Shown: positions 13,856-35,735, numbered from the stretch's first letter. The stretch is 64,000 nt of DNA from an uncultured Pseudomonadota bacterium (GCA_963840785.1 CAWJAF010000003.1:23682-87681); one strand, 5' to 3'. Program-made: numbers and translations. Notes: generated by a model from the letters alone, not told the origin.

Positions 13856-13909
13856 ACGCAAGTTACCAAAGCAAACGACGCAATAATTAATCTTCCTGAG
13901 GAGAAGTTC

Positions 13910-15601: not shown

Positions 15602-15611
15602 AGAAAACGCC

Positions 15612-18304: not shown

Positions 18305-18312
18305 CCATATCT

Positions 18313-21101: not shown

Positions 21102-21199
21102 GCATCGCCAAGACGCGCTACCCGCTTGCTTCTCCAAGCAGACCATGCCAGCAGCCAACATCCATGGGCCTCCTGGCGAGAGTGGCCAAAGCAATGCGC

Positions 21200-21254: not shown

Positions 21255-21872
21255 TTGGTTCGTCAAAAACAATCCGCTGAGCTAGAAACCATCAACGGCA
21301 GCAAGCGCAAACTGGTGTGCGATGCCGCCATTCGTGTGTTTATCGAAGACGGCTATAGCGCGAGCATGGAAAGCATTGCTGCGCGCGCCGGCGTCGCCAA
21401 GCAAACGCTGTACAACCAATTTGGCAACAAAGAAAGTTTGTTTGCAGAAGTGATTCGCCAGAGCGTCGACGATATTACTGTTTCGCTCGGCGAACCGAGC
21501 GCGGATTTGCGCCGCTCCTTGCTACGTTTCGCCGCGGCATTTCGTGCCAAGGCACTGTCGCCCTATGGACTGGGAATGCATCGCGCGCTGATTGCTCAGG
21601 CGCCAAGATTTCCAAAATTGGCGCGGATCGCCCACGAGAAAGGCGCCGCCAATGCGCGCGATACCCTCGCGAAATTTTTACAGCAAGCGATGGATACGGG
21701 AAAATTGCGCAAAACCGATTCGCAATTTGTCGCGGAGTTATTGCTCGGCATGCTCGCAGGCTTCGAGCGCGTACGCTTGTTGTACGGCGTCAAAACCGAT
21801 CCAACATCGCTGAATGAAAAACAGAAATGCGTTGCCATCGTTGATTGTTTTTTAAACGGTTTGGCAGCTTAG
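21255..21872 (+). CDS. TetR/AcrR-family transcriptional repressor
   Basis: N-terminal HTH KLVCDAAIRVFIEDGYSASMESIAARAGVAKQTLYNQFGNKESLF. TTG start preceded by GAGGAT. Confidence 0.85.
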   Translation: MVRQKQSAELETINGSKRKLVCDAAIRVFIEDGYSASMESIAARAGVAKQTLYNQFGNKESLFAEVIRQSVDDITVSLGEPSADLRRSLLRFAAAFRAKALSPYGLGMHRALIAQAPRFPKLARIAHEKGAANARDTLAKFLQQAMDTGKLRKTDSQFVAELLLGMLAGFERVRLLYGVKTDPTSLNEKQKCVAIVDCFLNGLAA

Positions 21873-21923: not shown

Positions 21924-24900
21924 ATGCGTTCGTACATTGAATTTATCGTCAAATTTCGTTGGATTGTCATTGCGCTGGTTGCGGCAGCGACGATATTTTT
22001 GAGTATGCGTGGATCCTCCTTGACGGTGATTATCGATCCGAACAGCATTGTTCCCAGGTCGCATCCATTCGTTGCGACCACACTCAAAGTAGAAGAAGTC
22101 TTCGGTTCGCGTTACGTCGCGGTAATTGGCATTACACCGAAGACCGGCGACGTCTTTCAAAAAAGTGTGCTGGAAAAAGTTCAGCGCATCACCGCCGAAT
22201 TGCGTACAACGCCGCGCATCGTTAAAACCAATTTGCTATCAGTCTCGGCGCGCCGCGCGAAAGATATCGTCGGCACCGCAGAAGGCATGTCGGTAAAACA
22301 GATGATGACGGAAGTGCCGACAACGCCGGAAGGAATGGCCGAATTAAAAAAGGCATTACAGCGAAATACCGCCTACATGAATTCAGTCGTTTCGAACGAT
22401 TGGAAGACCATCACCATCCTTGCCGAAGTGCGCGACGCGAAGCCGGAAGAAAAGAAGTTAAAGATGGGCGGATTCTCATACATCGCCGCAAAGATTAATG
22501 CGATCGCCGATAAGGAAAGAGACGAAACCGTGGACATTGCGGTGACCGGCTATCCCGCGTTCTTGGCAATGATCGAGAAATATTCCGGGCGGATGAAATG
22601 GATGTTGCTCGCGGCACTAGTGATTATCGGTCTCATCCACTATGAGGCATTCCGCACCATTCAGGGTTTGATTCTGCCATTGCTCACGCCGCTCGTCGCG
22701 GTGGAGTGGAGTAAAGGCTTCATGGGATTGGCCGACGTGCCCCTTGATATTTTTAACATGTCGACGCCGATATTAATTTTAGCGGTCGGTGCCGGACACG
22801 CGGTGCAAATGTTGAAACGCTATTACGAGGAATATAACCGGCTCAATCCTAATCCGGAGCCCGCAGTCGGCCTGCCGCCGATTGCTGGAAGTACTTCGTC
22901 GAATCTGTTCGCATGGATCGGGATTTGGATTTTGTGCGCCCTTCCCTACGCATACTTCGCTTGGAACGGCGCGCCGGCTGGCCCTTGGATGCCCCTTTCT
23001 ATACTGCTTGCGTTGTTGCCGTGGATTTATTGCTATTGGATTCGTCCCTATAAGCTCGCCAGCGCGCAATCGATTCAAGCGAGCAGGCAAGCGGTTACCG
23101 ATTCGATCCTAAAGATCGGCCCGGTGATGATCACGGCCGGCTTGGTTGCCGCATGCGGATTTTTCTCGCTGTATGTGTTCGACATTATTTCAATCAAAGT
23201 GTTCGGCATATTCTCCGGGATCGGTATTCTGAGCGTGCTTATTGTCGAATTGACGCTCATTCCGGCGGTGCGCTCCGTGTTGCCCCCACCGCGCGAAAAA
23301 GAAGCCCGCATGGAACGTGAAGAGCGTTTCTGGGATCGCCTGACGAATTTCTATTCCAATACCTTGTTGGGCCCCAAACGTGATCGCATCTTTGTTGTCG
23401 CGGGTGTCGCCGTGATCATCGCCCTATTCGGCATGAACCGCCTCGCCGTTGAAAGTTCACTGAAAAAATACTTCGATCCGGAACTGCCGTTACTGCAAAG
23501 CGATGCTAAGCTGAACGAGCGCATGGCGGGCACGAATAACATTTATCTGTTGATCGAAGGTGACAAGGTCGATGCCATTAAAGATCCCGCCGTGTTAAAA
23601 GCGATGGATCAATTACAGGAATTCGTCGCCAAGCAACCGAACATCGGCAAGGTCATTTCGATCGCCGAATTCATTAAACGCATGAATCAATCGATGAATG
23701 GCGACGATCCCGCGTTCTTCAAAATTCCTGATAAGCAAGAAACCATCGCTGAATATCTGTTGCTTTATTCGATGTCGGGCGAGCCAGGGGATTTTGATCC
23801 CTATGTCGACTATGACTATCGCTTAGCCAATATGGTGGTATTCAGTCATAGCGACAGCACGTTAGAAATGCGTAAATTTTGGGAACAAACAAAAGCTTTT
23901 GCCGAGAAAACGTTCCCGCCGAACATCAAAGTGAACGTCGGCGGCAGCGTTGCGCAAAGTGCGGCGATTACCGAAGTGATTGTGAAGGATAAAATCCTGA
24001 ACGTTCTTCAGATCGCGTCAGTTGTGTTTGTGGTCGCGTCGTTGGTATTCCGTTCGCTGGCTGCGGGGCTGTTGGTCATTACGCCTTTGCTGCTCTCGGT
24101 AATCATTAACGTCGGCTTGATGGGCTTATTGGGCTTGCGCTTAAATGTTCCAACCGCGTTAACCTCCGCGCTCGCGATCGGCATCGGTGCCGACTATGCG
24201 ATTTATATGTTGTTCCGCCTGCGCGAAGAACTGGCCAAAGGCATCGACGAAGAACAAGCATTCCGTAACGTGATGCGCACCGCGGGAAAAGCCTGTTTGT
24301 TCGTTGCTTCTGCGGTCGCCGGTGGCTATGCGGTTCAGGCATTCTCGCGCGGCTACTATCCGCACACCTGGAACGCGCTATTGATTGGCACCGCGATGTT
24401 GGTCAGCGTAACGGCGGCGTTAACCGTTATGCCTGCGTTAGTTTTAAAATTCCGTCCTAAGTTTATTTTTAATGGAGCTAAAAATATGAAGTTATCCCCC
24501 GCTGCGGCTACTACAATTGCCGTTGCCGTTGTCGCCGTCTTGTCCTTTGGCCACACGAAATCCGCCTATGCGATCACGCCGGTCGAAATCATGGAGAAAA
24601 ACTTCATGGTTGCAAAAATCGCCGATACGACAACGCAGACCACGATGACCTTGACGAATAAATCGGGACAAAAGCGCGTGCGCAAAACTGCCGGCGTCAC
24701 CAAGCTCGAGCCGAATGGCATCGACAATAAGCGCATGACGCGGTTTCTTGAGCCGGCGGACGTGAAAGGCACGGTCTCATTGTTAAGCGAGCATTCGGAC
24801 AAAGACGACGATATTTGGATTTACCTGCCCAGCATCAAAAAAGTGCGCCGCCTCGTTTCCAGCAACAAAAAAGATAGCTTTGTCGGAACCGATTTTTCAT

Positions 24901-25298
24901 ACGGCGATGTGATCGGCCATAAGGTAAACGAATGGACTCACAAATTGATCAAGGAAGAAGACGTTGACGGTAAAATGGCCTATGTCATCGAATCCTTGCC
25001 GCGTGATGCGGCAATCAAAGCCAATTCGGGTTATTCAAAGCGCATGAATTGGATTCAAAAGGATAACTTCGTAACCCTCAAGGGAATGCAATACGACGAG
25101 GCGGGCGAATTGGTCAAGGAATCTCGCTTTGGGCGTTTCAGGAATGTCGATGCCGCTAAAGGCAAGTGGCTGACCGGCGAGCTAACAGTAAAAAATGTCC
25201 AAACCGAGCACACTACACACATTTATACTGACGATCTCAAATACAATATCGGCGTTAAAGACGATTACTTCACCACCCGTTACATGGAACAACAATAG
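21924..25298 (+). CDS. RND-superfamily (MMPL-type) exporter whose ORF continues in frame into a LolA-like domain
   Basis: 1124-aa ORF. The first ~850 aa has two 6-TM bundles with large periplasmic loops typical of MMPL/RND exporters. There is no stop before the LolA-like part. Confidence 0.8.
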   Translation: MRSYIEFIVKFRWIVIALVAAATIFLSMRGSSLTVIIDPNSIVPRSHPFVATTLKVEEVFGSRYVAVIGITPKTGDVFQKSVLEKVQRITAELRTTPRIVKTNLLSVSARRAKDIVGTAEGMSVKQMMTEVPTTPEGMAELKKALQRNTAYMNSVVSNDWKTITILAEVRDAKPEEKKLKMGGFSYIAAKINAIADKERDETVDIAVTGYPAFLAMIEKYSGRMKWMLLAALVIIGLIHYEAFRTIQGLILPLLTPLVAVEWSKGFMGLADVPLDIFNMSTPILILAVGAGHAVQMLKRYYEEYNRLNPNPEPAVGLPPIAGSTSSNLFAWIGIWILCALPYAYFAWNGAPAGPWMPLSILLALLPWIYCYWIRPYKLASAQSIQASRQAVTDSILKIGPVMITAGLVAACGFFSLYVFDIISIKVFGIFSGIGILSVLIVELTLIPAVRSVLPPPREKEARMEREERFWDRLTNFYSNTLLGPKRDRIFVVAGVAVIIALFGMNRLAVESSLKKYFDPELPLLQSDAKLNERMAGTNNIYLLIEGDKVDAIKDPAVLKAMDQLQEFVAKQPNIGKVISIAEFIKRMNQSMNGDDPAFFKIPDKQETIAEYLLLYSMSGEPGDFDPYVDYDYRLANMVVFSHSDSTLEMRKFWEQTKAFAEKTFPPNIKVNVGGSVAQSAAITEVIVKDKILNVLQIASVVFVVASLVFRSLAAGLLVITPLLLSVIINVGLMGLLGLRLNVPTALTSALAIGIGADYAIYMLFRLREELAKGIDEEQAFRNVMRTAGKACLFVASAVAGGYAVQAFSRGYYPHTWNALLIGTAMLVSVTAALTVMPALVLKFRPKFIFNGAKNMKLSPAAATTIAVAVVAVLSFGHTKSAYAITPVEIMEKNFMVAKIADTTTQTTMTLTNKSGQKRVRKTAGVTKLEPNGIDNKRMTRFLEPADVKGTVSLLSEHSDKDDDIWIYLPSIKKVRRLVSSNKKDSFVGTDFSYGDVIGHKVNEWTHKLIKEEDVDGKMAYVIESLPRDAAIKANSGYSKRMNWIQKDNFVTLKGMQYDEAGELVKESRFGRFRNVDAAKGKWLTGELTVKNVQTEHTTHIYTDDLKYNIGVKDDYFTTRYMEQQ
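24486..25298 (+). other. LolA-like 'outer membrane lipoprotein-sorting protein' module with its own SD, ATG and signal peptide, in frame with the RND ORF
   Basis: GGAG lies 8 nt before ATG 24486. MKLSPAAATTIAVAVVAVLSFGHTKSAYA/ITPVEIMEKNF. Also DIWIYLPSIKKVRRL and DGKMAYVIESLPRD...YSKRMNWIQKDNF. Confidence 0.7.
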
Positions 25299-25311: not shown

Positions 25312-26691
25312 GTGCAAATATCTAATTCCTATGTCGACTTGATTCGACACGCGCTGCGTAGTTTGTTTGGACTTGGAATGATCGTCGGATCGTCGATTGC
25401 GCTTTGCGCCGATGAGGGCGAACCGCCGATGGCACCTGCTGAACCGACGATGGTTCCCGCAGAAAACGCGGATGTTCCGCGTACTGGCTTTGCCGGCATG
25501 AAGCAGGAACTCCACGACTGGGGCATCACCGGCTCGTTGCGCGGCGCCTATTGGTATTCCAATCGCCGCTCGGACGACGAAAAACATATCCCTAATGTTT
25601 CAGCTTGGTTGAAGCTTGATCGTAAACTGATAAAAGATTGGGGCATTTTCGTCGAAGGTTATTTGAACCGTGAAGATCCGTTCGATACGCGCAAAAACAC
25701 CAGCCGTTTTCGCGAAGCTTATGTCGAAGGCCGCAGCGGCGATTGGGATTTTCGTTTCGGCAAGCAGATCATTGCGTGGGGACGCGCTGATCGTTTTAAT
25801 CCAACCGATAATCTGACGCCGCGTGATTTTACGTTGCTAGCGCCGGAAACAGATGAAGATCGATTCGGGTCAGTCTCCGCCAAAGTCAGTTGGAATATCA
25901 ATTCATCGACGAGCCTAACGGGAGTCTGGCTACCGATGTTCCGCCCGCACGCCTTCGCCGTTCCCGATCAGCCTGGTATCTCGGTTGATAAAGATACGCC
26001 TGACGGCGCGCGGCAATGGGCGTTAAAACTTGATCAATCGGGCAAATCCATCGATTGGTCGGTTTCCTATTTTGATGGCTTTGATCTCACGCCGGACATC
26101 AGTTTTGGCGGCATCGCCACGAACGGAAATCTCATCGCGAAATTTCGCAACAACCGCACCCGCGTTCTGGGCGCAGACGCAGCAACAACGCTCGGCGCCT
26201 ATCGCCTCGCCACGGAAATCGCGTTCACCCGCACCGAAGATAACGGCGGCGGCAATCCCGACATCAAAAATTCTCATTGGTATGGCGTCTTTGGTGTTGA
26301 GCGTTCGTTCGAAGATAATTTAACCATTAACACGCAACTGTTCGGGCGGCGAGTTAGCCACTATTCCAATCCCGAGGACATCGCCAATCCAGCGATACAA
26401 CCGTTCGCCGTGCAAAACGCGATCATTAACAATCAGTACGACAAGCTCCAATATGGATTGACTTTGCGCGTCGCGAAAAAATGGTTCAACGAAACCTTGG
26501 AAGGCGAACTCGCCGGCAGCGTGCTGCTGAATCGCGCGGGTTATTTGATTCGACCGAAAATGGTCTACGCCTACAGCGATAGCATTAAGCTAATCGGCGG
26601 ATTCGAATATTTTGGTGGATCCGAAAAAACTTCCTATGGCAGCCAAAATAAAAATCGCGGTGTATTTGCGGAAATGCGTTATTTCTTTTAG
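25312..26691 (+). CDS. Putative outer-membrane beta-barrel protein partnered with the RND/LolA-like pair
   Basis: GTG 25312 after GGAG. Signal peptide. Alternating beta-strand-like pattern. C-terminus AEMRYFF ends in Phe, a typical OMP beta-signal. Possibly DUF1302-like (unverified). Confidence 0.6.
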   Translation: MQISNSYVDLIRHALRSLFGLGMIVGSSIALCADEGEPPMAPAEPTMVPAENADVPRTGFAGMKQELHDWGITGSLRGAYWYSNRRSDDEKHIPNVSAWLKLDRKLIKDWGIFVEGYLNREDPFDTRKNTSRFREAYVEGRSGDWDFRFGKQIIAWGRADRFNPTDNLTPRDFTLLAPETDEDRFGSVSAKVSWNINSSTSLTGVWLPMFRPHAFAVPDQPGISVDKDTPDGARQWALKLDQSGKSIDWSVSYFDGFDLTPDISFGGIATNGNLIAKFRNNRTRVLGADAATTLGAYRLATEIAFTRTEDNGGGNPDIKNSHWYGVFGVERSFEDNLTINTQLFGRRVSHYSNPEDIANPAIQPFAVQNAIINNQYDKLQYGLTLRVAKKWFNETLEGELAGSVLLNRAGYLIRPKMVYAYSDSIKLIGGFEYFGGSEKTSYGSQNKNRGVFAEMRYFF

Positions 26692-26913
26692 CTAAGAAAT
26701 GTTGCGGCGCTAAGGCATCAAGATTTTCGATTCGCTCGCTGCACGATATTTTTCCGTGTCTACCGCAGGTTCGGCGCACTCGCTGCGCTACAGTAATAAG
26801 GCAATGCCTGTAGAAGCCCATTAACACTTGTTCTACAGGCATACTCTGCCACAAGGCAAGCAGGATGTGGCTTGTGGCAGAGCAAGATAAACCCAGGCCG
26901 ATATTTTTATGCG

Positions 26914-28590
26914 CTAGCGCCAACCACGTTCACGCCAAAATGTGACCACCGTTTCGCCCCACGTATCGTCGCGCTGAATGGTCGCCGTTTGTGTTGGATG
27001 ACCGTCGGCCGCCTTGACAAGTATGATCGCCGTGGAATTTTTTGTTGGATTGAGAGCGCGTGGGTCAATTGCCGTAAATTGCGTTTGTATCTCCGTCATT
27101 TTGGCGATCAATTCGTTGAGTTTTTTCGAATCGCCGGCCGCAGCAGCAGCCATCAATTCTTGTTGCATCGCTTGCATCTTCGGCATCTGTGTTTTCATAT
27201 TTTTTTCGATCGCGTCGGCACTTTTCATCACTTCGCGGCCTTCCGACATTTTCTTGATAACGATTTCAGCCGACTCTTTGCTGGTAAACACGGCGCGTTC
27301 CCGCGTGCTGGCAAAATAGCGGAACCGTAAACTGTCAGAAGACTTAATTTCAAATTGTCCGGGTTGCGGCGAAAGCTCAGGAACCAACCCCGAGGTGAAA
27401 TCATCCGCGAATCCAGTACGATCACGCGGCCGCCATTTTTGCATGGCCGTCCAGCGAGAGCTATCGACACCTTGCAACAAACGTTCAGCCGAATCCCTGA
27501 CTGCCGGCGACGGATCGTCGACCATTTCCATCGCGAATTCAATTTCATCCGGGGATTCAGCGTAACCTAACATCAGCAGCGCCTGGCGTTTCAGCATGGG
27601 TAAATCAGCGTGGGCAAGCTCGAGTAACGATTCGCGTTCGATTTGCTCACCACTGCGATGCATCATGCGAATTAGATCGTACAAACCGACTTCGATGTTG
27701 CTTGCCAATCTATTGCACTGCTCGCCAGCCGTGCTTTCGCATGTTTGTTCCCATTGTGCAATTAAGTCTTCCAACGGCTCGTCAGAAATTGCAGCGCCGG
27801 TGATAATCGCAATCGAGCCGGGGCTCGTCACAAAGCCGGTTTTGCGTGCGCCGCCGCGGTTTTTGACAATCTTGCCGCCCTTCTTCGCCAACTTCTTTGC
27901 ATCCTTTGGCGTCGGTACGGCATTGGGGCCCGTTGAACCCTGCCAGCCGCAACTTAATGCGAGGTCCTTAGTTTGTTGCCGCAAATAATCGATACCGGCT
28001 TTATATGCTTCGGAATCGTTTCGTGCGAAAAACTCCAAGCTATCCCATTTGCTTTGCTTACCGGCAGCATTTAATTCCTTGCAGGTTTTTTCGTGATATT
28101 GCTCGTGGATGTAGGGATACCGCGCCAGGGCCTCGCAGGTTTTCTTTTGCGACTTCATATATTCCTCCTCTGTTTGAGGAGCCACAACTGGATCGCCATT
28201 GCTGTCCTTTACCGGATTGCCTTTCGCATCGTATTGAAACGCTCCGATGGTACATCCCGGGCTGCGAAAGTCTGTGCCCAATTCCGCATGGGCGCCATTG
28301 GCGGTACCGGCATTATTCTTAGGTGCTTTCGGATTGAATTGCTGCTGCATCAATTCGGCAGCGCGACTCTGCATCGTTTCGATATCGTTGATATTCGACG
28401 GCATGTAGTCGTTCCAACTAAAAAACAGTTTCTGCAGAAACTCTTGCTCGATGATTTCTTTCACCATCGCCGGAAGATTTTTGCAGGCACAACTTGGTGG
28501 CATGCCGTCTTTGGTTTTATCCGCAGCAGATGTCAACGTCGTGAAAGTTAGCAACGTCAGCACAACAATAGCGATCCCAATCCGCTTCAT
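26914..28590 (-). CDS. Secreted Cys-rich protein of unknown function with HEAT-like repeats
   Basis: 558 aa. Signal peptide ends TSA/ADK. 10 Cys in the first ~300 aa of the mature protein. DDPSPAVRDSAERLL is HEAT-like. ATG overlaps the upstream stop (ATGA). Confidence 0.6.
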   Translation of the reverse strand: MKRIGIAIVVLTLLTFTTLTSAADKTKDGMPPSCACKNLPAMVKEIIEQEFLQKLFFSWNDYMPSNINDIETMQSRAAELMQQQFNPKAPKNNAGTANGAHAELGTDFRSPGCTIGAFQYDAKGNPVKDSNGDPVVAPQTEEEYMKSQKKTCEALARYPYIHEQYHEKTCKELNAAGKQSKWDSLEFFARNDSEAYKAGIDYLRQQTKDLALSCGWQGSTGPNAVPTPKDAKKLAKKGGKIVKNRGGARKTGFVTSPGSIAIITGAAISDEPLEDLIAQWEQTCESTAGEQCNRLASNIEVGLYDLIRMMHRSGEQIERESLLELAHADLPMLKRQALLMLGYAESPDEIEFAMEMVDDPSPAVRDSAERLLQGVDSSRWTAMQKWRPRDRTGFADDFTSGLVPELSPQPGQFEIKSSDSLRFRYFASTRERAVFTSKESAEIVIKKMSEGREVMKSADAIEKNMKTQMPKMQAMQQELMAAAAAGDSKKLNELIAKMTEIQTQFTAIDPRALNPTKNSTAIILVKAADGHPTQTATIQRDDTWGETVVTFWRERGWR

Positions 28591-29969
28591 TTTTTATCCT
28601 CCAAATTTCTTGCTGGGTTAAACAGGCCCGTCAACTCTAAATTGAATTGGCTCTGCGCATTAGTCGGCTCAAGCCGCAGTGCTTCTCGAAAAGACGCGCG
28701 CGCGAATTCAACATTGTCATCCGCCAGATGGGCCATCCCTAAATTATTCCATGCGCGGCTTGAATGCGGCACATTGCGTAGCGCCTCCTGCCAAAGACGA
28801 ACCGGATTGCTCCAAACCGCAGCGCGCCATGCGCATAAAGCACTTAACGCAATCACCCCGAATAAAATGCAATAGTAACGCATACGCAGGCCATTGAAAG
28901 TCGCGAACCAACGACCCGCGCCAGCTCCCAACGCGATCGCCGGGCCTACCCAGGCGAGACAAAGCGGCGATTCGCTGATTGAATCCAATTTTGCGATAAA
29001 CGAGTGAGTGGGAAGCAACGCAATCAATGGCCACAGTAATCCTATCGTTAGCATCGGTCGCGTGTGACGCATCGCGACGGCAATCGTCGTCCAAGCAAAG
29101 ATCGCTGCCGCGCCAAGAACGGCAGCGACATAACTCGTCGACGGCAGCGCATGCTCGATCGAGAGCGCCCAGGGCCGCAGCAGCAATGACGCAGTCAAGG
29201 GCAACGCGGTGAGATTCCGGTACAACGATTCTAACGGTGAGCGCAGATCAAGTGAGTAGGCCAGCAATTCGCGGTAGCGTGAAAGGGCCAGCGCATACAC
29301 GGCCAGCGCGAACGTCGCAACGATGTATGGCAATGTCCGCCGCAATGCCGCGCCAATCTGATGAGAACTATTCGGCTTGGCCCATTCCCATAACAACAGA
29401 AGCAATGGAAAAATTAATGCGACCTCTTTCGCGGCGCAAGCGGCAAAATAAAGCACGATGGAAATGCCAATCATGACCTTGCGGTATGCGGGATTGCGCG
29501 CAGCACATTCGTAAAAAACTAGCGCCCACACCAAACACGCCGTCATAAGCGCCGAAGATCGACCACTGACATAAGCAACCACCGCGCCATGCGCAGGTTG
29601 CAAGGCGAAAATCAGCGCGGCCAGCATCGCACCGATCTGGTTGGACACAACGGATCTTGCGAGTCGCCACACGCCAATCGTTGAAATTACGTGAATTAGG
29701 AGATTGCTGCCAAACCAACCCGATGTCGATTTACCCCATAGGGCAAAGTCAATCGCGTAGGTCAGTCGTGTTAGCGGCCGGATGCCATGGGCGAGCCGTT
29801 CCCAGAGCAGCGGACCCATGGCCGTCGCGGGATCATTCAAAATATTGGGATAGTCGTCGTACTGAAAACGGCCGAATAAAATTCCGCCCCAACCGATAGC
29901 GATGGAAACGAATAGCAACCAAGCAAATGGATGGTCGATTTTCCTGATCAGTTGCACAGCACGTTTCAT
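28587..29969 (-). CDS. GT-C-fold membrane glycosyltransferase-like protein (PMT/TMTC-like) with C-terminal TPR
   Basis: About 10 TM segments. First-loop motif GRFQYDDYPNILNDP (the DD motif of PMT/TMTC-type enzymes). C-terminal TPR: AWNNLGMAHLADDNVEFARASFREALRLEP. Confidence 0.6.
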   Translation of the reverse strand: MKRAVQLIRKIDHPFAWLLFVSIAIGWGGILFGRFQYDDYPNILNDPATAMGPLLWERLAHGIRPLTRLTYAIDFALWGKSTSGWFGSNLLIHVISTIGVWRLARSVVSNQIGAMLAALIFALQPAHGAVVAYVSGRSSALMTACLVWALVFYECAARNPAYRKVMIGISIVLYFAACAAKEVALIFPLLLLLWEWAKPNSSHQIGAALRRTLPYIVATFALAVYALALSRYRELLAYSLDLRSPLESLYRNLTALPLTASLLLRPWALSIEHALPSTSYVAAVLGAAAIFAWTTIAVAMRHTRPMLTIGLLWPLIALLPTHSFIAKLDSISESPLCLAWVGPAIALGAGAGRWFATFNGLRMRYYCILFGVIALSALCAWRAAVWSNPVRLWQEALRNVPHSSRAWNNLGMAHLADDNVEFARASFREALRLEPTNAQSQFNLELTGLFNPARNLEDKK

Positions 29970-30048
29970 CGATTCAATGGTTAATGCCCGAAGATGCTCA
30001 TGAATACTGCCTCACCGACCTGCCTTGCTTGAAAGCAAGTATCCATGC

Positions 30049-30077
30049 GCGTTCCCCGCACACGCGGGGATGAACCG
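30049..30077 (+). CRISPR. Solitary type I-E-like CRISPR repeat (no array)
   Basis: GCGTTCCCCGCACACGCGGGGATGAACCG, 29 nt. It matches the I-E consensus shape GTTCCCCGC-N4-GCGGGGAT-AACCG. I found no second copy at spacer distance on either side. Confidence 0.45.
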
Positions 30078-30153
30078 GTCGGTACGAAGTCGCGGTAAAT
30101 GAAGCGGACATACCTGCCGGTGTAACCCTTACGCGGATGTGCTGACAATTGTC

Positions 30154-30450
30154 CTACTTCCGGCCTATCCAATACCCCGGCCGGCGACTATGATTAGCAA
30201 TCGCGATGACGCGAATCTCGTCGCCTTGAATATGGTAGATCAGCGAGTAGGGGAAACTGTGAAGCGCCCGTATTCGTGTGTTGTGAACGGCTTGCTCACC
30301 CATAAAGGGGAATTCGCATAACAAACGATACGCCTGATCAAGTGTGTTGGCGAAATCTTCTGCAGCAACAAATCCACCATCGCTAAAATACCAATCGGTA
30401 ACAGCGTTGGCGTCGGTTTGCGCTTCGTCGCTAAGACTGACTTACATCAC
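30154..30450 (-). pseudogene. ParE/RelE-family toxin lacking a usable start (GTG-ATG-TAA immediately upstream in frame)
   Basis: My reverse translation reads VSLSDEAQTDANAVTDWYFSDGGFVAAEDFANTLDQAYRLLCEFPFMGEQAVHNTRIRALHSFPYSLIYHIQGDEIRVIAIANHSRRPGYW, stopping at 30156-30154. In the same frame just upstream is GTG ATG TAA (30450-30442). Not in the ORF track. Confidence 0.6.
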
Positions 30451-30661
30451 CTTTGGCGGCGGCTATTTTTGCGTGGAGCTTATCCGTGACTTCGTCGGCA
30501 GGAATCCATTTTGTCCGCCCTGCATCCATATCCGCCACCCGACGCTCGATTTCTTCGTCCCATGCTTTTGCAATGGTCTCCGGCGAATCTTCCGGTTCGC
30601 CATCAAGGCTGACAAGCAGACGATGGGCCAGCTCGCCACGCTCCTTCAGTGGCAATCGCAA
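30431..30661 (-). CDS. Antitoxin, 'addiction module component' family
   Basis: LPLKERGELAHRLLVSLDGEPEDS...WDEEIERRVADMDAGRTKWIPADEV is typical of this antitoxin family. TTG 30661 lies 9 nt after GGAGA. The rest of ORF 30431..30847 is probably not translated. Confidence 0.6.
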   Translation of the reverse strand: MRLPLKERGELAHRLLVSLDGEPEDSPETIAKAWDEEIERRVADMDAGRTKWIPADEVTDKLHAKIAAAKGDVSQS

Positions 30662-30715
30662 TGCTTGAATTCTCCGCGATGAAATGTGCCGAAAGGTTAT
30701 GGTAGCACCGCCCGC

Positions 30716-31108
30716 ATGAACGACGCTAATCCCATCGCGATTTCTGCGCTTCAGCATTACGCCTACTGTCCGCGTCAATGCGCGCTGATTCACGTGGAGC
30801 AAGTATTTGACGACAATATTTACACGGCGCGTGGCCAGGCTGTGCATCGGCTTGTCGATACGCCGGGGTACGAAATCAAGGATGGGGTCAAGGTGGAGCG
30901 CGCACTGCCCCCTTGGTCAGATCGGCTTGAGCTGATTGGCAAGACCGATGCCGTGGAATTTCATCCCGATGGCGCGGTGTTTCCAGTCGAGTTCAAACAC
31001 GGTCGCAAGCGTGAAAAAATTCACGACGATGAACAACCCCGCAGCAAGCTGCGGGGTATCAATCCGCAAACCGCATTTGTTTTCGTGGCGAGCCACGGGC
31101 GAATCTAA
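30716..31108 (+). pseudogene. cas4: Cas4/RecB-like PD-(D/E)XK nuclease, truncated after ~107 codons
   Basis: MNDANPIAISALQHYAYCPRQCALIHVEQVFDDNIYTARGQAVH...DAVEFHPDGAVFPVEFKHGRKREKIHDDEQ is Cas4-like. Similarity stops at 31036. The remainder of the ORF is unrelated and ends at 31108. The C-terminal Cys cluster is missing. Confidence 0.6.
31037..31056. repeat. GC-rich inverted repeat at the Cas4 truncation point
   Basis: CCCCGCAGC-AA-GCTGCGGGG begins at the first base after Cas4-like similarity ends. Confidence 0.5.
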
Positions 31109-31203
31109 CTCGACGAGATTGATTATCGCCTTTGGTGGATCGAACAAAACATCGTACGGCCGCCAAGATCAAAATCGCGGAATTTTCGCTGAAGCAAGGT
31201 GTT
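31095..31203 (+). pseudogene. Relic 3' end of a paralogue of the barrel gene 25312..26691
   Basis: Reads STRLIIAFGGSNKTSYGRQDQNRGIFAEARCFF-Y, versus the C-terminus of 25312..26691, SIKLIGGFEYFGGSEKTSYGSQNKNRGVFAEMRYFF-stop. Codon-by-codon DNA alignment shows mostly third-position changes. The stop TAG has become TAC. Confidence 0.7.
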
Positions 31204-31458
31204 TCTTTTACGCAAAGGTTTCACCGGAGGATGCCCAAGAGCCGCACCCAGCGCGCCGCTTCGAGCATATGCTGCCACGAACCAATATCCATGAGGCTTC
31301 TGGATCATACCCACAAAATATTTCAATTTCCCATAGCGAAAGCACGGCCATTTAACTTGCTTTTGCACCCCTCGCCGTGTACGCTTGCGGCGAGATTCGA
31401 ATTTCGAGAATCGCGGCTCAAGTCGGCCGATTTCACCCAATATAAACGAGGAGTTTCC

Positions 31459-32619
31459 ATGAAGAAGACTCGCGCTGACATTAGCGCTCCTGAAACCGTC
31501 ACGGCAGAAGCCAAGTCTACGCGCCGTAGATTTTTGTCGGCGGCGACGGCGGGTGTGGCGGGCGCCGCCACCCTCGGTTTCCCGATGATTAGCAAAGCGC
31601 AAGCGCCGATCAAATTGCGTTGCCAAGCAGGCTGGCCGACCAAAGACGCGTTTTACGAATTTTCGCAAATCTTCGTGAAGAAAATTTCCGACATGACCGC
31701 CGGCAAATTGGTGTTCGAATTGCTGCCGGCTGGTTCCGTCGTTAAACCATTCGATATGTTAGACGCCGTGCATTCCGGCACGCTAGATTCCGCCCACGGC
31801 GCGTGCGGATATTGGTATGGTAAGAACACGGCATATTCGCTATTCGGCACCGGCCCCGCGATCGGCATGGACGCGCAGATGCTGCTTGGCTGGGTTGAGC
31901 AAGGTGGCGGTCAAGCGCTGTACGATGAGTTGGTCGGCAAAATTCTGAAATACAACGTCAAGGGTTTCCTGAACGTACCGATGTGGAATCAACCGCTCGG
32001 TTGGTTCAAGAAGGAAGTGAAAACGGCGGCGGATTTTAAAGGTTTGAAATACCGCACCATCGGTCTTGCGGTGGATCTCTATAAGGAAATGGGTGCATCG
32101 GTCGTCATGTTGCCGTCTGCCGAAATCGTTCCAGCGCTCGAGCGCGGCCTGATCGACGCGGCGGAATTTAATAACCCAACATCGGATCGCACCCTCGGCT
32201 TCGACGATGTGTCGAAAGTCTGCATGGTGCAAAGCTTTCATCAGCCGATGGAGTGCCAAGAAATCATTATCAACAAGAAAAAATACGATGCGCTGCCGAA
32301 AGAGTTTCAGGCGATTATCGCCAACGCTGCCGGCGCGATGTCGTCGGAAATGAGCTACAAAGCCATGAACAACAATTCACGCGACATGGCGGAACTCAAA
32401 GCGAAGGGGGTTAATTTCATCCGTACGCCGACCGAAATTCTCCAGGCGCAATTGAAAGCATGGGATGCGGTTATTGCAAAGCGCTCGGCAGAAAATCCCT
32501 TTTTCGTGAAAGTATTGGAATCCCAAAAGAAATGGATTCAACGCGTCGGCCCGTGGCGCTACGCCATCGAGCCGAGCCAGGAAATGGCGTACAACCATTT
32601 CTTCGGCAAGAAGGGCTAG
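31459..32619 (+). CDS. dctP: TRAP transporter substrate-binding protein (DctP family) with a twin-arginine signal
   Basis: ATG 31459 after GAGGAG. STRRRFLSAATAGVAGAATLGFPMISKAQA is a Tat signal. DctP-like body. The upstream part of ORF 31132..32619 is non-coding. Confidence 0.85.
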   Translation: MKKTRADISAPETVTAEAKSTRRRFLSAATAGVAGAATLGFPMISKAQAPIKLRCQAGWPTKDAFYEFSQIFVKKISDMTAGKLVFELLPAGSVVKPFDMLDAVHSGTLDSAHGACGYWYGKNTAYSLFGTGPAIGMDAQMLLGWVEQGGGQALYDELVGKILKYNVKGFLNVPMWNQPLGWFKKEVKTAADFKGLKYRTIGLAVDLYKEMGASVVMLPSAEIVPALERGLIDAAEFNNPTSDRTLGFDDVSKVCMVQSFHQPMECQEIIINKKKYDALPKEFQAIIANAAGAMSSEMSYKAMNNNSRDMAELKAKGVNFIRTPTEILQAQLKAWDAVIAKRSAENPFFVKVLESQKKWIQRVGPWRYAIEPSQEMAYNHFFGKKG

Positions 32620-32639
32620 TTAACGTTCGTTCAATCAAG

Positions 32640-32675
32640 CGCCCGGCATTATCACTTTGATGCCGGGCGTTTCGT
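32640..32675 (+). terminator. Intra-operon hairpin/attenuator after the TRAP binding-protein gene
   Basis: CGCCCGGCAT - 10-nt loop - ATGCCGGGCG, a perfect 10-bp stem, followed by TTTCGT. Confidence 0.6.
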
Positions 32676-32687
32676 ATCGGAAATTCC

Positions 32688-33278
32688 ATGCAGCGTTTTT
32701 TATTTTTTATTGATCGCATCAGCACTTGGGTCGGCAAATCCTTCGCGTGGTGCATCGTACTGCTTACCGCTGTCGTCGCCTACGACGTGGTCATGCGCAA
32801 ATTGGGCGACCCAACGGTTTGGGCATTCGACCTGTCGTGGATGCTTTACGGCGCGCTGTTTTTGATGGCAGGCGCGTACACGCTGTCGCGCAACGGTCAT
32901 GTGCGCGGCGATGTGCTGTACGGATACTTCCCGCCACGGATGCAGGCCGGTTTGGATTTAGTGTTGTATTTCGCTTTCTTCGTGCCGGGAATCTTGGCGC
33001 TTGCCTACGCCGGCATCGGTTATGCAGAAACTTCTTGGGTTCAAAAGGAAACCTCATACAACTCGGCCGACATCATTATTTACCCGGTGAAAGTATTGAT
33101 CCCCATCGCGGGCATGCTGGTATTTCTGCAGGGCATCGCGGAAATCATTCGCTGCGTGCAATGTCTGCGCACCGGTCAATGGCCTGGGCGCGCACACGAT
33201 GTTGAGGAAGTCGATGTCGAAGAACTGAAACAAATGATCGGCGTTAAAGATAGCGATATCGCTGGAGCCAAACCGTGA
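32688..33278 (+). CDS. dctQ: TRAP transporter small permease (DctQ family)
   Basis: 196 aa, 4 TM, positioned between the DctP and DctM genes. Confidence 0.85.
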   Translation: MQRFLFFIDRISTWVGKSFAWCIVLLTAVVAYDVVMRKLGDPTVWAFDLSWMLYGALFLMAGAYTLSRNGHVRGDVLYGYFPPRMQAGLDLVLYFAFFVPGILALAYAGIGYAETSWVQKETSYNSADIIIYPVKVLIPIAGMLVFLQGIAEIIRCVQCLRTGQWPGRAHDVEEVDVEELKQMIGVKDSDIAGAKP

Positions 33279-34708
33279 GTAAAGGCATTTGGATCGGCAT
33301 CGTTTCTTTAGCGGTCGTCGTCTTTGGCGTGTTCGCGGTATTTTTATCGGCGGATCAAATCACCAGCGGACATTACGGTTTGCTGATGCTCGCGCTGATT
33401 GTCGCCGCAATCATGTTGGGTTTTCCGACGGCGTTTACCTTGATGGGCCTGGGCATGATCTTCGGCTTCATCGCCTATCAAATTTCCAATCCCGGCGAAC
33501 CCTGGGCTAACAACCAAATCTTCCCGCTGATCGTGCAACGCACCTTCGGCGTGATGAACAACGACGTGCTGATTTCCGTACCGCTGTTCATCTTCATGGG
33601 GTACATCATCGAGCGCGCGAACTTGATCGACAAATTGTTCCGCAGCGTGCAGTTGGCGATGAAGAACACGCCCGGCGCGCTCGCCGTCGCAACCATCGTG
33701 ACCTGCGCGATCTTCGCCACAGCGACCGGGATCGTGGGCGCCACGGTCACGCTGATGGGCTTGCTCGCGTTGCCCGCGATGTTGCGTGCCGGCTACGATG
33801 TGAAGCTTTCGGCCGGGACGATCGCCGCGGGTGGCTGCCTCGGCATTCTCATTCCGCCATCAGTAATGTTGATTCTATACGGCGCGACGGCCGGCGTGTC
33901 CGTTCCGAAGCTTTACGCTGCCGCGTTTTTTCCGGGACTGATGTTGACGGCGCTTTACATCATTTATGTCATGGTGCGCGCTATCATCAATCCTAAGATC
34001 GCGCCAAAACTCAGCGCCGAAGACTTGAAAACGCCATGGCCGGAAATTCTCGTCAACCTGGCGAAATCGTTTTTGCCACTGGCGTTGTTAATCGGCTTCG
34101 TATTGGGCAGCATCATCGCCGCCTGGGCAACCGCCACGGAAGCAGCGGGCATCGGCGCGGCGGGTGGCATCGTTCTTGCGATGGCCTATCGCCAATTGAC
34201 TTGGGAACGCTTTAAGGAAGCCGTGTTCCTCACCGCGCGCGCATCGGCGATGGTGTGCTGGCTGCTAGTGGGATCGGGCGTTTTTTCGGCAGCATTCGCG
34301 TTGTTGGGCGGCCAAGGGCTGATCGAGGATTGGGTCAAGGCCATGGACCTGACACCGATGCAGTTCATGCTGCTATCCCAAGTGATTATCTTTCTACTTG
34401 GCTGGCCACTGGAATGGACCGAGATCATCGTCATTTTCATGCCGATTTTCTTGCCGCTGATTGCGCACTTTCAAATCGATCCGTTGTTCTTCGGCATTAT
34501 GGTTGCGCTGAATTTGCAGACAGCATTCCTGTCCCCGCCCGTGGCGATGGCGGCGTTTTATTTAAAGGGGGTTGCGCCACCGCATGTGACGCTGAATCAA
34601 ATTTTCGCGGGGATGATGCCCTTCATGGTCATCCAAGTGTTCGCCATGTTCCTGCTTTATATGTGGCCGGATATTGCGCTGTGGCTACCCGCTCAACAGT
34701 ACAAGTGA
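33275..34708 (+). CDS. dctM: TRAP transporter large permease (DctM family)
   Basis: 477 aa polytopic protein. Start overlaps the dctQ stop. Typical DctM length and composition. Confidence 0.85.
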   Translation: MSKGIWIGIVSLAVVVFGVFAVFLSADQITSGHYGLLMLALIVAAIMLGFPTAFTLMGLGMIFGFIAYQISNPGEPWANNQIFPLIVQRTFGVMNNDVLISVPLFIFMGYIIERANLIDKLFRSVQLAMKNTPGALAVATIVTCAIFATATGIVGATVTLMGLLALPAMLRAGYDVKLSAGTIAAGGCLGILIPPSVMLILYGATAGVSVPKLYAAAFFPGLMLTALYIIYVMVRAIINPKIAPKLSAEDLKTPWPEILVNLAKSFLPLALLIGFVLGSIIAAWATATEAAGIGAAGGIVLAMAYRQLTWERFKEAVFLTARASAMVCWLLVGSGVFSAAFALLGGQGLIEDWVKAMDLTPMQFMLLSQVIIFLLGWPLEWTEIIVIFMPIFLPLIAHFQIDPLFFGIMVALNLQTAFLSPPVAMAAFYLKGVAPPHVTLNQIFAGMMPFMVIQVFAMFLLYMWPDIALWLPAQQYK

Positions 34709-34716: not shown

Positions 34717-35687
34717 ATGAAGCCAAAAGTTTTAGTCACCCGTGAAATTTTTCCCGAGACGCTTGTTTACCTGCGCGAGCATCTGGATGTCGAAGACAAT
34801 CAATCGGACAACGTGTTAAGTGCTGCCGAATTGGCTGGCGCGGCTTGCTGACAAAGTAGGCGTGATGTCGTCGGGCTCCGATAAAGTCGATGCAGCATTG
34901 CTCGCAATAGTTCCGCATCTCAAAGCGGTATGTAACATCGGCGTGGGTTACAACAATGTCGACGTCAATGCGGCCACGCAGCACAAGATCATGGTCACGA
35001 ATACGCCCGGCGTGCTGGATGAAACCGTCGCCGATACCGCGTTCGCCTACGTGCTCGCCACGGCGAGCCGTATGACCGAGTCGGAGCAATTTTTGCGCAA
35101 TGGCCAAGTGGACAAAAAATACGCTGACGCATAATGCTCGGCCGCGACGTGCATCACGCCACGCTGGGCATTGTCGGCATGGGCCGCATTGGTCAAGCCG
35201 TCGCACGGCGCGCGCGCGGCTTCGACATGGACGTGATTTATTACAATCGCAATCGCGTTGCGGACGACATTGAAAAAGCCTGCAATGCAAAATACGTCAG
35301 CAAACACGACCTGATGAAGCAAGCGGATTTCATTGTGTTGCTAGTTCCGTACACGCCGGAAAATCATCATTTGATCGGCGCAACGGAAATCGCGTTAATG
35401 AAATCTGATGGCGGTGCTGATCAACATCGCGCGCGGCGGCATCGTCGATGAATTGGCGCTTGATCGACGCCTTGAAGAATCGCAAAATATTCGGTGCCGG
35501 TGTCGATGTATTCGAGAACGAGCCGAACTTTCGCAAGGAATTTTTGGAGCTCTCCAATGTAGTATTATTGCCGCATCTTGGCAGCGCCAGCGAAAACACC
35601 CGCCGCGCAATGGCAAATCTCGCGGCCAAGAACTTAGTCGCCGCGCTCACCACGGGCAACCCACCTAATCAAGTGAATAAATTGTAA
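34717..35687 (+). pseudogene. D-isomer-specific 2-hydroxyacid dehydrogenase (glyoxylate/hydroxypyruvate reductase-like) broken by four frame changes
   Basis: Five ORF-track pieces spell one enzyme: MKPKVLVTREIF.. / ..VGYNNVDVNAATQHKIMVTNTPGVLDETVADTAF.. / ..[18 protein letters not shown].. / [14 protein letters not shown] / IDALKNRKIFGAGVDVFENEP..LPHLGSAS. Frames run 1>2>1>2>0, with breaks near 34837, 35128-35134, 35410 and 35462. Confidence 0.8.
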
Positions 35688-35700: not shown

Positions 35701-35735
35701 TTGTCATTCTGAGCGAAGCGAAGAATCTGCTTTTG
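35701..35735. repeat. REP-like small palindromic element
   Basis: GTCATTCTGAGCGAAGCGAAGAATCTGC, with an ATTCT/AGAAT stem. This motif class is commonly dispersed in intergenic regions. Confidence 0.35.

What the first reader, a model, noticed from the sequence alone, without database searches (positions are those of the whole stretch)
26575..31203. A diverged second copy of the barrel gene's last ~30 codons marks the far side of a 4.4-kb patchwork insert
The end of gene 25312..26691 (SIKLIGGFEYFGGSEKTSYGSQNKNRGVFAEMRYFF-TAG) recurs at 31095-31203 as STRLIIAFGGSNKTSYGRQDQNRGIFAEARCFF-TAC. Differences are mostly synonymous-type and the stop is lost. Between the two copies lie genes of unrelated character: a GT-C/TPR protein with a secreted Cys-rich protein, a lone CRISPR repeat, a ParE-type TA pair and half a Cas4 gene. 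Two readings are possible. (a) An integrative element inserted into the 3' end of the barrel gene and supplied a replacement 3' end, displacing the original. (b) A paralogous barrel gene upstream of the TRAP operon was mostly deleted during successive insertions. Either way, this is a recombination scar defining an accessory segment.
Basis: partly seen in the sequence, partly recalled or inferred. Interest (0 to 1): 0.55.

Follow-up and report, generated by a model that had tools for sequence, protein, structure and literature searches.

The report
Displaced gene tail marks old insertion
A 4.4-kb block of accessory and half-decayed genes was inserted into the last 26 codons of an outer-membrane barrel gene in an ammonia-oxidising bacterium, leaving a second, diverged copy of the gene's tail on the far side; this is a real but ordinary recombination scar.

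Summary
The repeat is real. Window 26611-26691 (end of the DUF1302 barrel gene, "C1") recurs at 31131-31211 ("C2"): 60 of 81 nt identical, in-window blastn E 5e-10, and a family HMM matches only its last 26 positions. It covers 26 codons plus the stop position, not about 36.

In five related contigs the barrel gene sits 238-243 nt upstream of the TRAP gene dctP. C2's lost stop lies 247 nt upstream of dctP and is followed by the same spacer. So 26692-31130 is an insertion, and no relative has a second barrel gene.

The copies are not a fresh duplicate: pS 0.60 against pN 0.17. C1 looks chimeric: its first 17 codons carry the GSQN signature of its own clade, and its last 10 (VFAEMRYFF) match more distant lineages. 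C2 keeps the clade-typical IFAE..R..FF tail.

Best reading (about 0.5): incoming DNA with its own barrel tail crossed over inside the resident tail, as e14 does in E. coli icd. That supplied a new end and displaced the old one. No recombinase is present. The insert is a patchwork with host-like composition.

Main rival: one-ended, homology-anchored replacement of the resident gene.

Verdict: known kind, low-to-moderate interest.

The parts
25312..26691 (+). DUF1302-family outer-membrane barrel gene (459 aa from GTG 25312; 437 aa from ATG 25378, the length of the matching database member P0245). It is the last gene of a TetR / MMPL-LolA-like / barrel cluster.
   Evidence: Pfam PF06980. 91% identical to P0001. 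P0245, the 437-aa member of that cluster, is identical in sequence to the translation from 25378 and comes from a 795-kb contig.
26611..26691 (+). C1: the functional tail of the barrel gene (26 codons plus TAG). It looks chimeric. Codons 1-17 are clade-typical (SEK...GSQNKNRG). Codons 18-26 (VFAEMRYFF) are of a type found in more distant lineages.
26651..26660 (+). AAAATCGCGG, a 10-nt block identical in C1 and C2 (C2 coordinates 31171-31180). It is the favoured crossover point because the ancestry of both copies appears to switch here. Other identical blocks are TTTGGTGGATC (26611-26621 / 31131-31141) and TTTCTTTTA (26682-26690 / 31202-31210).
   Evidence: The crossover position is inferred, not shown.
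26692..26913 (.). Left spacer of the insert. It has no homologue downstream of any orthologous barrel gene and contains a 15-bp-stem hairpin at 26844-26882.
   Evidence: Homology to L004/L005/L013/L021 stops at the stop codon. Hairpin is I8.
26914..28590 (-). 558-aa protein of unknown family, with a hydrophobic N-terminus that looks like a signal peptide. It is the second gene of a conserved two-gene module.
   Evidence: Only a weak HEAT_2 hit and no NCBIfam hit. A 558-aa partner follows the GT-C/TPR gene in L022-L025. Nucleotide homology covers 26914-29958 at 73-76%.
28587..29969 (-). 460-aa membrane protein with a C-terminal TPR repeat (GT-C / GT39-like). It is the first gene of the module and overlaps its partner by 4 nt.
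   Evidence: TPR hits. Some sources name homologues 'protein O-mannosyl-transferase' or 'glycosyltransferase family 39'. The module sits in two other contexts.
30051..30077 (+). Single palindromic 27-mer GTTCCCCGCACACGCGGGGATGAACCG that resembles a type I-E CRISPR repeat.
   Evidence: One copy in the window at up to 3 mismatches. No Rfam hit. The family resemblance is from memory.
30154..30447 (-). ParE-family toxin gene. The frame is complete but ATG is followed by TAA at codon 2, so it is probably inactive.
   Evidence: Translation. PF05016 positions 1-88 of 89.
30431..30847 (-). ORF containing the antitoxin (Unstab_antitox domain at ORF residues 65-120). The real start is probably near 30660.
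   Evidence: PF09720 E 7e-12.
30716..31037 (+). N-terminal half of a cas4 gene, truncated after ...KIHDDEQ.
   Evidence: TIGR00372 positions 1-98 of 180; PF01930 positions 3-81 of 160.
31038..31130 (.). 93-nt junction segment of unknown origin between the cas4 stump and C2. It starts with the hairpin CCCCGCAGCAAGCTGCGGGG.
   Evidence: The hairpin is unique in the window. No barrel homology by blastn or HMM.
31131..31211 (+). C2: the displaced barrel-gene tail (26 codons; stop mutated to TAC). It sits exactly where the orthologous gene end lies in relatives.
   Evidence: Closest orthologous tail is L021 at 86%.
31212..31458 (.). Ancestral barrel-dctP spacer (247 nt), with a conserved hairpin motif at 31234-31308.
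   Evidence: Alignments A1 and A2. Motif copies. Spacer is 238 nt in L005 and 243 nt in L021.
31459..34708 (+). TRAP transporter operon dctPQM, the ancestral right-hand neighbour of the barrel gene.
   Evidence: Pfam DctP. Synteny in L005-L008 and L021.

Best explanation
This is a 3'-end displacement scar. The ancestral order was TetR, MMPL/LolA-like exporter, DUF1302 barrel, a spacer of about 240 nt, then dctPQM.

A DNA molecule, most simply a circle, carried a homeologous 78-nt barrel-gene tail followed by accessory genes. It underwent one reciprocal crossover with the resident tail (Campbell-type insertion). After that event the gene is closed by a hybrid tail: resident codons up to about codon 17, then incoming codons 18-26 plus the stop. 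The reciprocal hybrid was pushed 4.5 kb downstream next to the old spacer: incoming codons 1-17, then resident codons 18-26 and the original downstream DNA. There it lost its stop and began to decay.

The favoured crossover is the 10-nt identical block AAAATCGCGG. The 11-nt block at the left edge is the alternative. Identical blocks of only 9-13 nt argue for a site-specific or short-homology event rather than efficient RecA recombination (inference from general knowledge).

The insert is now immobile and eroded: no recombinase, a ParE toxin with a stop at codon 2, half a cas4 gene, and a single repeat.

Shown: the repeat, the insertion relative to relatives, the coding-type divergence of the copies, and the aberrant functional tail. 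Inferred: the circular intermediate, the crossover position, and the loss of an integrase.
For: 1. The repeat is significant.
2. Five relatives have the barrel gene directly next to dctP with a 238-243 nt spacer. L009-L011 keep a DctM remnant at the same place. C2 plus the spacer plus dctP is collinear with L021 at 80%.
3. Homology to orthologues downstream of C1 stops at the stop codon. Homology at C2 starts abruptly at 31131.
4. C1 against C2 gives pS 0.60, pN 0.17, dN/dS about 0.16. The copies therefore diverged as parts of working genes.
5. Window against L004 pS is 0.33 in the gene body and 0.85 in the last 26 codons, which is in the top 1.5% of windows. L004 against L021 is normal there (0.44 against 0.56), so the window's tail is the odd one.
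6. A 62-nt identical run with L004 ends at 26615, 5 nt into the repeat.
7. In nt 51-78, C2, L004 and L021 differ by 2-6 nt. C1 differs from them by 9-11 nt and from L013/L014 by only 5.
8. GSQN is unique to the window/L004 cluster. VFAEMRYFF occurs in P0003. VFAEMRYYF occurs in P0005.
9. Both reconstructed parental tails are coherent natural types. The resident would be FGGSEKTSYGSQNKNRG+IFAEARCFF, 24 of 26 identical to L004. The incoming would be FGGSNKTSYGRQDQNRG+VFAEMRYFF, 23 of 26 identical to P0004.
Against: - No integrase or transposase lies in 26692-31130 or in the other window ORFs I scanned.
- The switch test on 15 informative sites against L004 gives only p = 0.09. It becomes clean only if three C2-private changes are set aside after the fact.
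- C2 as a whole is a coherent L021-like tail (87% identity; pS 0.31 to L021 against 0.73 to L004). So C2 need not be chimeric, and it may come from a different lineage than the present gene body.
- The window-L004 comparison has at least 8 other divergence switches of similar size in 5.5 kb. I estimate the chance of one falling this close to the repeat edge at about 3%, which is suggestive but not decisive.
- The insert has host-like GC and codon usage.
- Its core two-gene module sits in ordinary chromosomal contexts in other genomes.
- A strain with 99.5% identical TRAP genes (L001) is only about 80% identical in the 190 nt upstream of dctP. Further recombination has therefore overprinted the locus.
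- Everything rests on 81 nt.
Confidence: 0.5

Rival explanations
1. One-ended, homology-anchored replacement (homology-facilitated illegitimate recombination, as proposed for Rhs and T6SS 'C-terminal displacement'). A linear fragment from a related genome carried barrel gene sequence with its tail, perhaps also TetR and MMPL, plus downstream accessory genes. It recombined homologously on the left. On the right it joined illegitimately 81 nt before the resident gene's stop. Most of the resident orthologue was deleted, and C2 is all that is left of it. This is the surviving form of the first reader's option (b).
For: - C2 starts abruptly with no homology to its left.
- C2 is a coherent L021-type tail and is far from L004 at synonymous sites (pS 0.73), whereas the present gene body is close to L004 (pS 0.33).
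- The cluster's left neighbours differ from those in relatives: amo/cop genes here against ApbA in L004, L005 and L008. Homology starts at 21196, next to a hairpin motif.
- Relatives show two different right-hand contexts, so the module is often reshuffled.
- No recombinase is needed.
- The mechanism is described in PMC5361080 and the references it cites.
Against: - It does not explain why the functional tail is itself chimeric (GSQN plus VFAEM). It also does not explain why synonymous divergence from L004 jumps within a few nt of the point equivalent to C2's left end. An extra earlier event in the donor would be needed.
- The dctP 5' region is no closer to L021 (pS 0.54) than the barrel body is (pS 0.61). 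The right flank is therefore not demonstrably L021-like.
Confidence: 0.3
2. A tandem paralogue or second full-length barrel gene once stood upstream of TRAP and was whittled down by successive insertions and deletions.
For: The coding-type divergence of the copies would fit two long-lived functional genes. The insert is a patchwork, which suggests several events.
Against: - None of the relatives examined has a second copy.
- Five have a single barrel gene directly abutting dctP.
- C2 sits at the orthologous distance from dctP (247 nt against 238-243 nt) and is followed by the orthologous spacer. It is therefore the orthologous end, not an extra gene.
Confidence: 0.07
3. A local duplication of the last 81 nt was created at the moment of insertion (a long target duplication or replication slippage). 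The downstream copy then drifted neutrally.
For: C2 shows some decay: the stop is lost, plus Y to C and V to A changes that are private to it.
Against: - pS 0.60 with dN/dS about 0.16 between the copies, where a drifting copy should approach 1.
- C2 carries R and D where C1 and its whole clade carry S and N. Those states match other lineages, so two specific reversions would be needed.
- C1's last 10 codons match foreign allele types at 6 of 6 sites where it differs from C2, L004 and L021.
Confidence: 0.05
4. Assembly artefact: two strains joined at a shared sequence.
For: The neighbouring 2-hydroxyacid dehydrogenase gene is broken over at least 4 frames, which could hint at indel errors. Two cluster members that match window proteins exactly come from one 795-kb contig of unknown assembly type.
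Against: A chimeric join would collapse a repeat, not create a 75%-identical pair 4.5 kb apart. All other genes around it are intact. The insert genes and junctions are internally consistent.
Confidence: 0.03

Closest known systems
e14 element / phage 21 in the E. coli isocitrate dehydrogenase gene (icd and the icdC pseudogene)
   Same: An insert sits inside the 3' end of a housekeeping-type gene. The gene is kept intact by an alternative, mostly synonymously different tail at the insert's left end. A displaced C-terminal fragment pseudogene lies at the right end (described in PMC13626634, citing Hill et al. 1989, PMC210168). Those features match here: C1, the insert and C2.
   Different: e14 encodes its own integrase and excises after SOS induction. 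Here no recombinase is present, and the insert is a patchwork of ordinary and decayed genes. The repeat is only 81 nt at 74% identity. The crossover appears to lie inside the repeat rather than at its gene-proximal edge.
C-terminal displacement in Rhs / T6SS effector loci by homology-facilitated illegitimate recombination
   Same: Incoming DNA is anchored on a conserved upstream part of a gene. It brings a new 3' end plus downstream genes. The old 3' end is shifted downstream as an orphan fragment (PMC5361080, which cites Jackson et al. 2009, de Vries & Wackernagel 2002 and Meier & Wackernagel 2003).
   Different: Those systems exchange functionally different toxin tips with cognate immunity genes under diversifying selection. 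Here the two tails encode the same conserved beta-barrel closing strand, and the cargo is unrelated to the gene.
Genomic islands integrated in the 3' end of tRNA/tmRNA genes
   Same: A direct repeat of the target gene's 3' part flanks the island and the gene is restored (general knowledge).
   Different: Those repeats are normally identical and an integrase gene is adjacent. Here the target is a protein-coding gene, the repeat is diverged and there is no integrase.

Membership tests
Integrative element that targets a gene's 3' end and supplies a replacement tail (e14/phage 21-icd type) | A direct repeat of the target gene's tail flanks the insert | tested here: met
   26611-26691 against 31131-31211, 60 of 81 nt identical, E 5e-10
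Integrative element that targets a gene's 3' end and supplies a replacement tail (e14/phage 21-icd type) | Uninterrupted (empty) site in relatives | tested here: met
   L005-L008 and L021 have the barrel gene and dctP 238-243 nt apart. These are other species; no conspecific empty site was available.
Integrative element that targets a gene's 3' end and supplies a replacement tail (e14/phage 21-icd type) | The functional tail is insert-derived and the displaced copy is the native one | tested here: inconclusive
   For: C1's last 10 codons are foreign-type, C2's are clade-type, and pS is 0.85 against 0.33. Against: C2 as a whole looks L021-like rather than L004-like. Only 81 nt are available.
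Integrative element that targets a gene's 3' end and supplies a replacement tail (e14/phage 21-icd type) | Encodes a site-specific recombinase (integrase) | tested here: not met
   All coding space in 26692-31130 is accounted for and none of it is a recombinase. None was found in the other window ORFs I scanned.
Integrative element that targets a gene's 3' end and supplies a replacement tail (e14/phage 21-icd type) | Identical core sequence at both junctions | tested here: inconclusive
   Identical blocks are only 11, 10 and 9 nt. This is compatible with a core but also expected from conserved codons.
Integrative element that targets a gene's 3' end and supplies a replacement tail (e14/phage 21-icd type) | Excision or circular form | not testable with these tools
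   Needs reads or PCR.
C-terminal displacement by homology-facilitated illegitimate recombination | Displaced 3' fragment downstream of an intact gene, starting at a junction with no homology to its left | tested here: met
   Homology to all orthologues and to the family HMM starts at 31131.
C-terminal displacement by homology-facilitated illegitimate recombination | The donor tract extends leftwards into the gene body (homologous anchor) with a different ancestry from the displaced fragment | tested here: inconclusive
   The body is L004-like and C2 is L021-like. However, the tail of C1 is a third type, and the divergence switch lies at the repeat edge.
CRISPR array | Two or more repeats separated by spacers | tested here: not met
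   One copy at up to 3 mismatches. No Rfam CRISPR-DR hit at E<=1.
DUF1302 (PF06980) outer-membrane protein family | Match to the family profile above the curated cut-off | tested here: met
   36.1 bits against a cut-off of 23.2. 774 homologues were found; most of the 120 listed carry PF06980.
Tandem paralogue pair of barrel genes | A second full-length gene at this position in relatives | tested here: not met
   No second tail or gene in any locus fetched up to (L001-L020).

The most novel reading that the evidence does not exclude
The conserved last 26 codons of DUF1302 barrel genes, or the hairpin motif that brackets the TetR-MMPL-barrel module, may be a dedicated landing site for an undescribed family of small integrative elements in ammonia-oxidising Nitrosomonadaceae. 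Such elements would carry a spare barrel tail and defence-type cargo (toxin/antitoxin pair, cas4, a solitary CRISPR repeat). The copy here would have lost its recombinase.
Probability: 0.1. Interest if true: 0.45.

Novelty: new member of a known kind. Interest (0 to 1): 0.25.

Why it matters
The finding is mainly useful for annotation and genome history.
- It delimits a 4.4-kb accessory segment.
- It flags 31131-31211 as a pseudogene fragment rather than part of a long dctP ORF.
- It shows that the end of the barrel gene is a recombinant tail.
- It documents that the region next to an amoCAB-copCD cluster in an ammonia oxidiser is a recombination hot spot, with at least three ancestries within 5 kb.

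It does not reveal a new mechanism. Gene-tail displacement by insertion is well known from e14/icd and from Rhs/T6SS loci.

Tried and rejected
- **Longer repeat (31050 or 31095 onward).** Rejected. The family HMM aligns only profile positions 425-450. No orthologue aligns left of 31131 by blastn.
- **Composition and codon usage as a foreign signal.** No contrast. GC is 0.49-0.57 inside the insert and 0.48-0.60 outside. RSCU distances of 0.066 and 0.127 fall within the window range of 0.048-0.150.
- **Structured RNA or tRNA as the target.** No tRNA and no Rfam hit.
- **Conspecific empty site.**
  - Exact-protein look-ups for the 459-aa barrel reading, the GT-C/TPR protein and DctP found nothing on record.
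  - DctQ gave only short contigs, and L001 starts inside the spacer.
  - The genome scan gave only species-level relatives.
  - The metagenome scan gave nothing above 52% identity.
- **The L004 downstream region as 'another insert at the same site'.** Revised. The WYL/WCX regulator downstream of the barrel gene is shared by L004, L026, L061, L013 and L014. It is a second widespread arrangement, not a private insert.
- **Right flank specifically L021-like.** Not supported. dctP pS is 0.54 against 0.61 for the barrel body.
- **Divergence switch at 26611-26614 as unique.** It is unique only with windows tuned to the data. With neutral window sizes it ranks fifth (at 60 nt) or lower.
- **Promoter and terminator scan.** Uninformative.

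Full report
**Setting**

The window comes from a betaproteobacterial ammonia oxidiser. amoC, amoA and amoB lie at 13832-16874 and copC/copD at 18250-20648. GC is about 53%.

To their right lie these genes:
- a TetR regulator (21255-21872);
- an MMPL-type exporter fused to a LolA-like domain (21924-25298);
- a DUF1302 outer-membrane barrel gene (25312 or 25378 to 26691).

After 4.4 kb of other material comes a TRAP transporter operon, dctPQM (31459-34708).

Yes. 26611-26690 matches 31131-31210 at 75% over 80 nt, with blastn E 5e-10 against the whole window. It is the largest direct repeat in the region. The barrel protein finds the second copy by tblastn at E 6e-8. An HMM built from 113 family members hits the remnant frame at E 3.8e-9.

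That HMM alignment covers only profile positions 425-450. No orthologue aligns to the left of 31131. The supported repeat is therefore 26 codons plus the stop position: C1 = 26611-26691 and C2 = 31131-31211.

The stop is TAG in C1 and TAC in C2.

**Is 26692-31130 an insert?**

Yes, relative to the ancestral order.
- In L005-L008 (77% protein identity) and L021 (85%), the barrel gene is followed after 238-243 nt by dctP.
- In the window, the position of C2's lost stop is 247 nt from dctP.
- C2, the spacer and the start of dctP align end to end with L021 at 80%. The spacer alignments A1 and A2 show the same.
- L009-L011 keep the last 53 codons of DctM right after the barrel gene, so the adjacency is old.
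- Downstream of C1, similarity to every orthologous locus stops at the stop codon.
- No relative has a second barrel tail or gene.

**What kind of repeat is it?**

It is not a fresh duplication.
- The 21 differences fall 7/2/12 by codon position.
- Nei-Gojobori counts give pS 0.60, pN 0.17 and dN/dS about 0.16.
- The two tails therefore diverged while each closed a working gene.
- C2 has since picked up a few private changes: stop loss, Y to C and V to A.

**Which tail is native?**

The present gene body is sister to L004 and its cluster: 88% nt identity and pS 0.33. In the last 26 codons, pS against L004 is 0.85, in the top 1.5% of 26-codon windows. L004 against L021 is normal there. The window's functional tail is therefore the odd one.

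A 62-nt run identical to L004 ends at 26615, 5 nt into the repeat. With neutral window sizes, however, at least eight switches of similar size exist in the 5.5-kb block. I estimate the chance of one falling this close to the repeat edge at about 3%, which is suggestive only.

Inside the repeat the picture splits in two.
- **First 50 nt.** C1 is L004-like and carries GSQN, a signature found only in that 90% cluster. C2 has the general RQD state.
- **Last 28 nt.** C2, L004 and L021 differ from each other by 2-6 nt and share ATY TTC GCY GAA GYA AGG. C1 (GTA TTT GCG GAA ATG CGT) differs from them by 9-11 nt and resembles L013/L014 with 5 differences.

All five other members of the cluster end IFAEVRYFF. 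Only the window ends VFAEMRYFF, a tail also seen in the 79%-identical P0003.

Recombining the halves gives two coherent natural tails:
- resident: FGGSEKTSYGSQNKNRG + IFAEARCFF, 24 of 26 identical to L004;
- incoming: FGGSNKTSYGRQDQNRG + VFAEMRYFF, 23 of 26 identical to P0004.

That is the signature of one reciprocal crossover between a resident tail and a homeologous tail on the incoming DNA, most likely in the 10-nt identical block AAAATCGCGG.

The statistics are weak, because only 15 sites are informative. The raw pattern is 111111222122211, with permutation p = 0.09.

**A caveat that keeps a rival alive**

Taken whole, C2 is also a coherent L021-type tail. It is 87% identical to L021, with pS 0.31 to L021 and 0.73 to L004. 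It may therefore belong to a different lineage from the present gene body.

This fits a one-ended replacement. An incoming fragment carried the barrel gene plus accessory DNA, and perhaps the whole TetR-MMPL-barrel cluster. It recombined homologously on the left and joined illegitimately 81 nt before the resident stop. This is the mechanism proposed for Rhs/T6SS C-terminal displacement (PMC5361080).

Support for this rival:
- The left neighbours differ from relatives, with amo/cop genes here against ApbA there.
- A hairpin motif brackets the module on both sides.
- Relatives show two right-hand contexts, TRAP or a WYL/WCX regulator.

Against it:
- It does not explain the chimeric C1.
- The dctP 5' region is no closer to L021 than the barrel body is (pS 0.54 against 0.61).

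I put the reciprocal-crossover reading at about 0.5 and the replacement reading at about 0.3.

**What is in the insert?**

| Coordinates | Strand | Content | Evidence |
|---|---|---|---|
| 26692-26913 |. | Spacer with a hairpin | |
| 26914-29969 | - | Two-gene module: GT-C/TPR membrane protein plus a 558-aa protein of unknown family | |
| 30051-30077 | + | One palindromic 27-mer resembling a type I-E CRISPR repeat (from memory); one copy, no Rfam hit | |
| 30154-30447 | - | ParE-type toxin, complete frame with TAA at codon 2 | |
| 30431-30847 | - | ORF holding the antitoxin | |
| 30716-31037 | + | N-terminal half of cas4 | |
| 31038-31130 |. | 93 nt of unknown origin | |

The two-gene module recurs at 73-76% nt identity in two other chromosomal contexts. 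In L022/L023 it lies next to cbtBA. In L024/L025 it lies next to a PhdYeFM-type pair.

There is no recombinase. GC and codon usage match the flanks. The donor was therefore compositionally similar, or the insert is old. Its eroded state argues for age and for more than one event.

**Later overprinting**

Contig L001 is 99.5% identical to the window across dctPQM. It is only about 80% identical in the 190 nt upstream of dctP. So there is another recombination boundary at the dctP start in one of the two strains.

**Comparison with known cases**

The layout matches e14/phage 21 in E. coli icd: a functional gene with an alternative tail, an insert, then the icdC tail pseudogene (PMC13626634). The defining integrase is absent here, so I do not file this as a member of that class. 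The outcome also matches HFIR-type C-terminal displacement, although the cargo is not a toxin/immunity pair.

**Verdict**

This is a real, well-delimited recombination scar of a known kind. Novelty: new member of a known kind. Interest: 0.25.

Noticed in passing
window 34717-35684: The 2-hydroxyacid dehydrogenase gene downstream of dctM is split over at least four reading frames relative to the intact L005 orthologue (five tblastn pieces, 77-95% identical). It is either a pseudogene or a run of indel errors. The neighbouring genes are intact.
   Followed up: partly
window 21147-21177 and 31234-31308; L004 5707-5777 and 11403-11477; L005 1846-1900: A hairpin motif of about 55 nt (stem GCCAGGAGCC/GGCTCCTGGC type, loop AATATCCATG) lies both upstream of TetR and downstream of the barrel gene. 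Synteny with relatives breaks at or next to it. It may be a REP-like recombination hot spot or a terminator. The stem shows paired changes between species.
   Followed up: partly
L004 11650-15429; L061 2840-3376; L014 about 4100-4700; L013 3151-3228: A second widespread right-hand context exists. The barrel gene is followed by a WYL/WCX-type HTH regulator instead of TRAP; in L004 a HigB/HigA-like pair follows. The two contexts do not track the barrel gene phylogeny.
   Followed up: partly
L001 1-200 against window 31265-31458: A strain with 99.5% nt identity across dctPQM is only about 80% identical in the 190 nt upstream of dctP. This is a sharp recombination boundary at the gene start.
   Followed up: partly
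L009 11394-11549 (also L010, L011): In this lineage the TRAP operon has been deleted. Only the last 53 codons of dctM remain between the barrel gene and the dehydrogenase gene.
   Followed up: no
window 35702-35733; L013 2813-2844; L014 3741-3772; L009 12571-12604: A short repeated element (GTCATTCTGAGCGAAGCGAAGAATC...) recurs in intergenic spots of several genomes. In L013 and L014 it lies directly after the barrel stop codon.
   Followed up: no
window 13832-20648: amoCAB followed by two unassigned ORFs and copC/copD lies immediately left of the TetR-MMPL-barrel cluster. Relatives have ApbA there instead, so the left border of the cluster is also rearranged.
   Followed up: partly
window 30442-30447: The ParE toxin frame is full length against Pfam, but its ATG is followed at once by TAA. 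The toxin has probably been silenced, while the antitoxin reading frame shows no internal stop.
   Followed up: yes
window 41614-43548 and 44756-47155 (- strand): Two large proteins are built from repeated ASH/Cep192-like Ig domains (up to six repeats). I did not examine them further.
   Followed up: no
L022 8001-11044; L024 8001-11071: The GT-C/TPR plus 558-aa pair is a conserved, translationally coupled module (4-nt overlap). It sits in a different chromosomal neighbourhood in each genome seen. In L024 it is again next to a toxin/antitoxin-like pair.
   Followed up: partly
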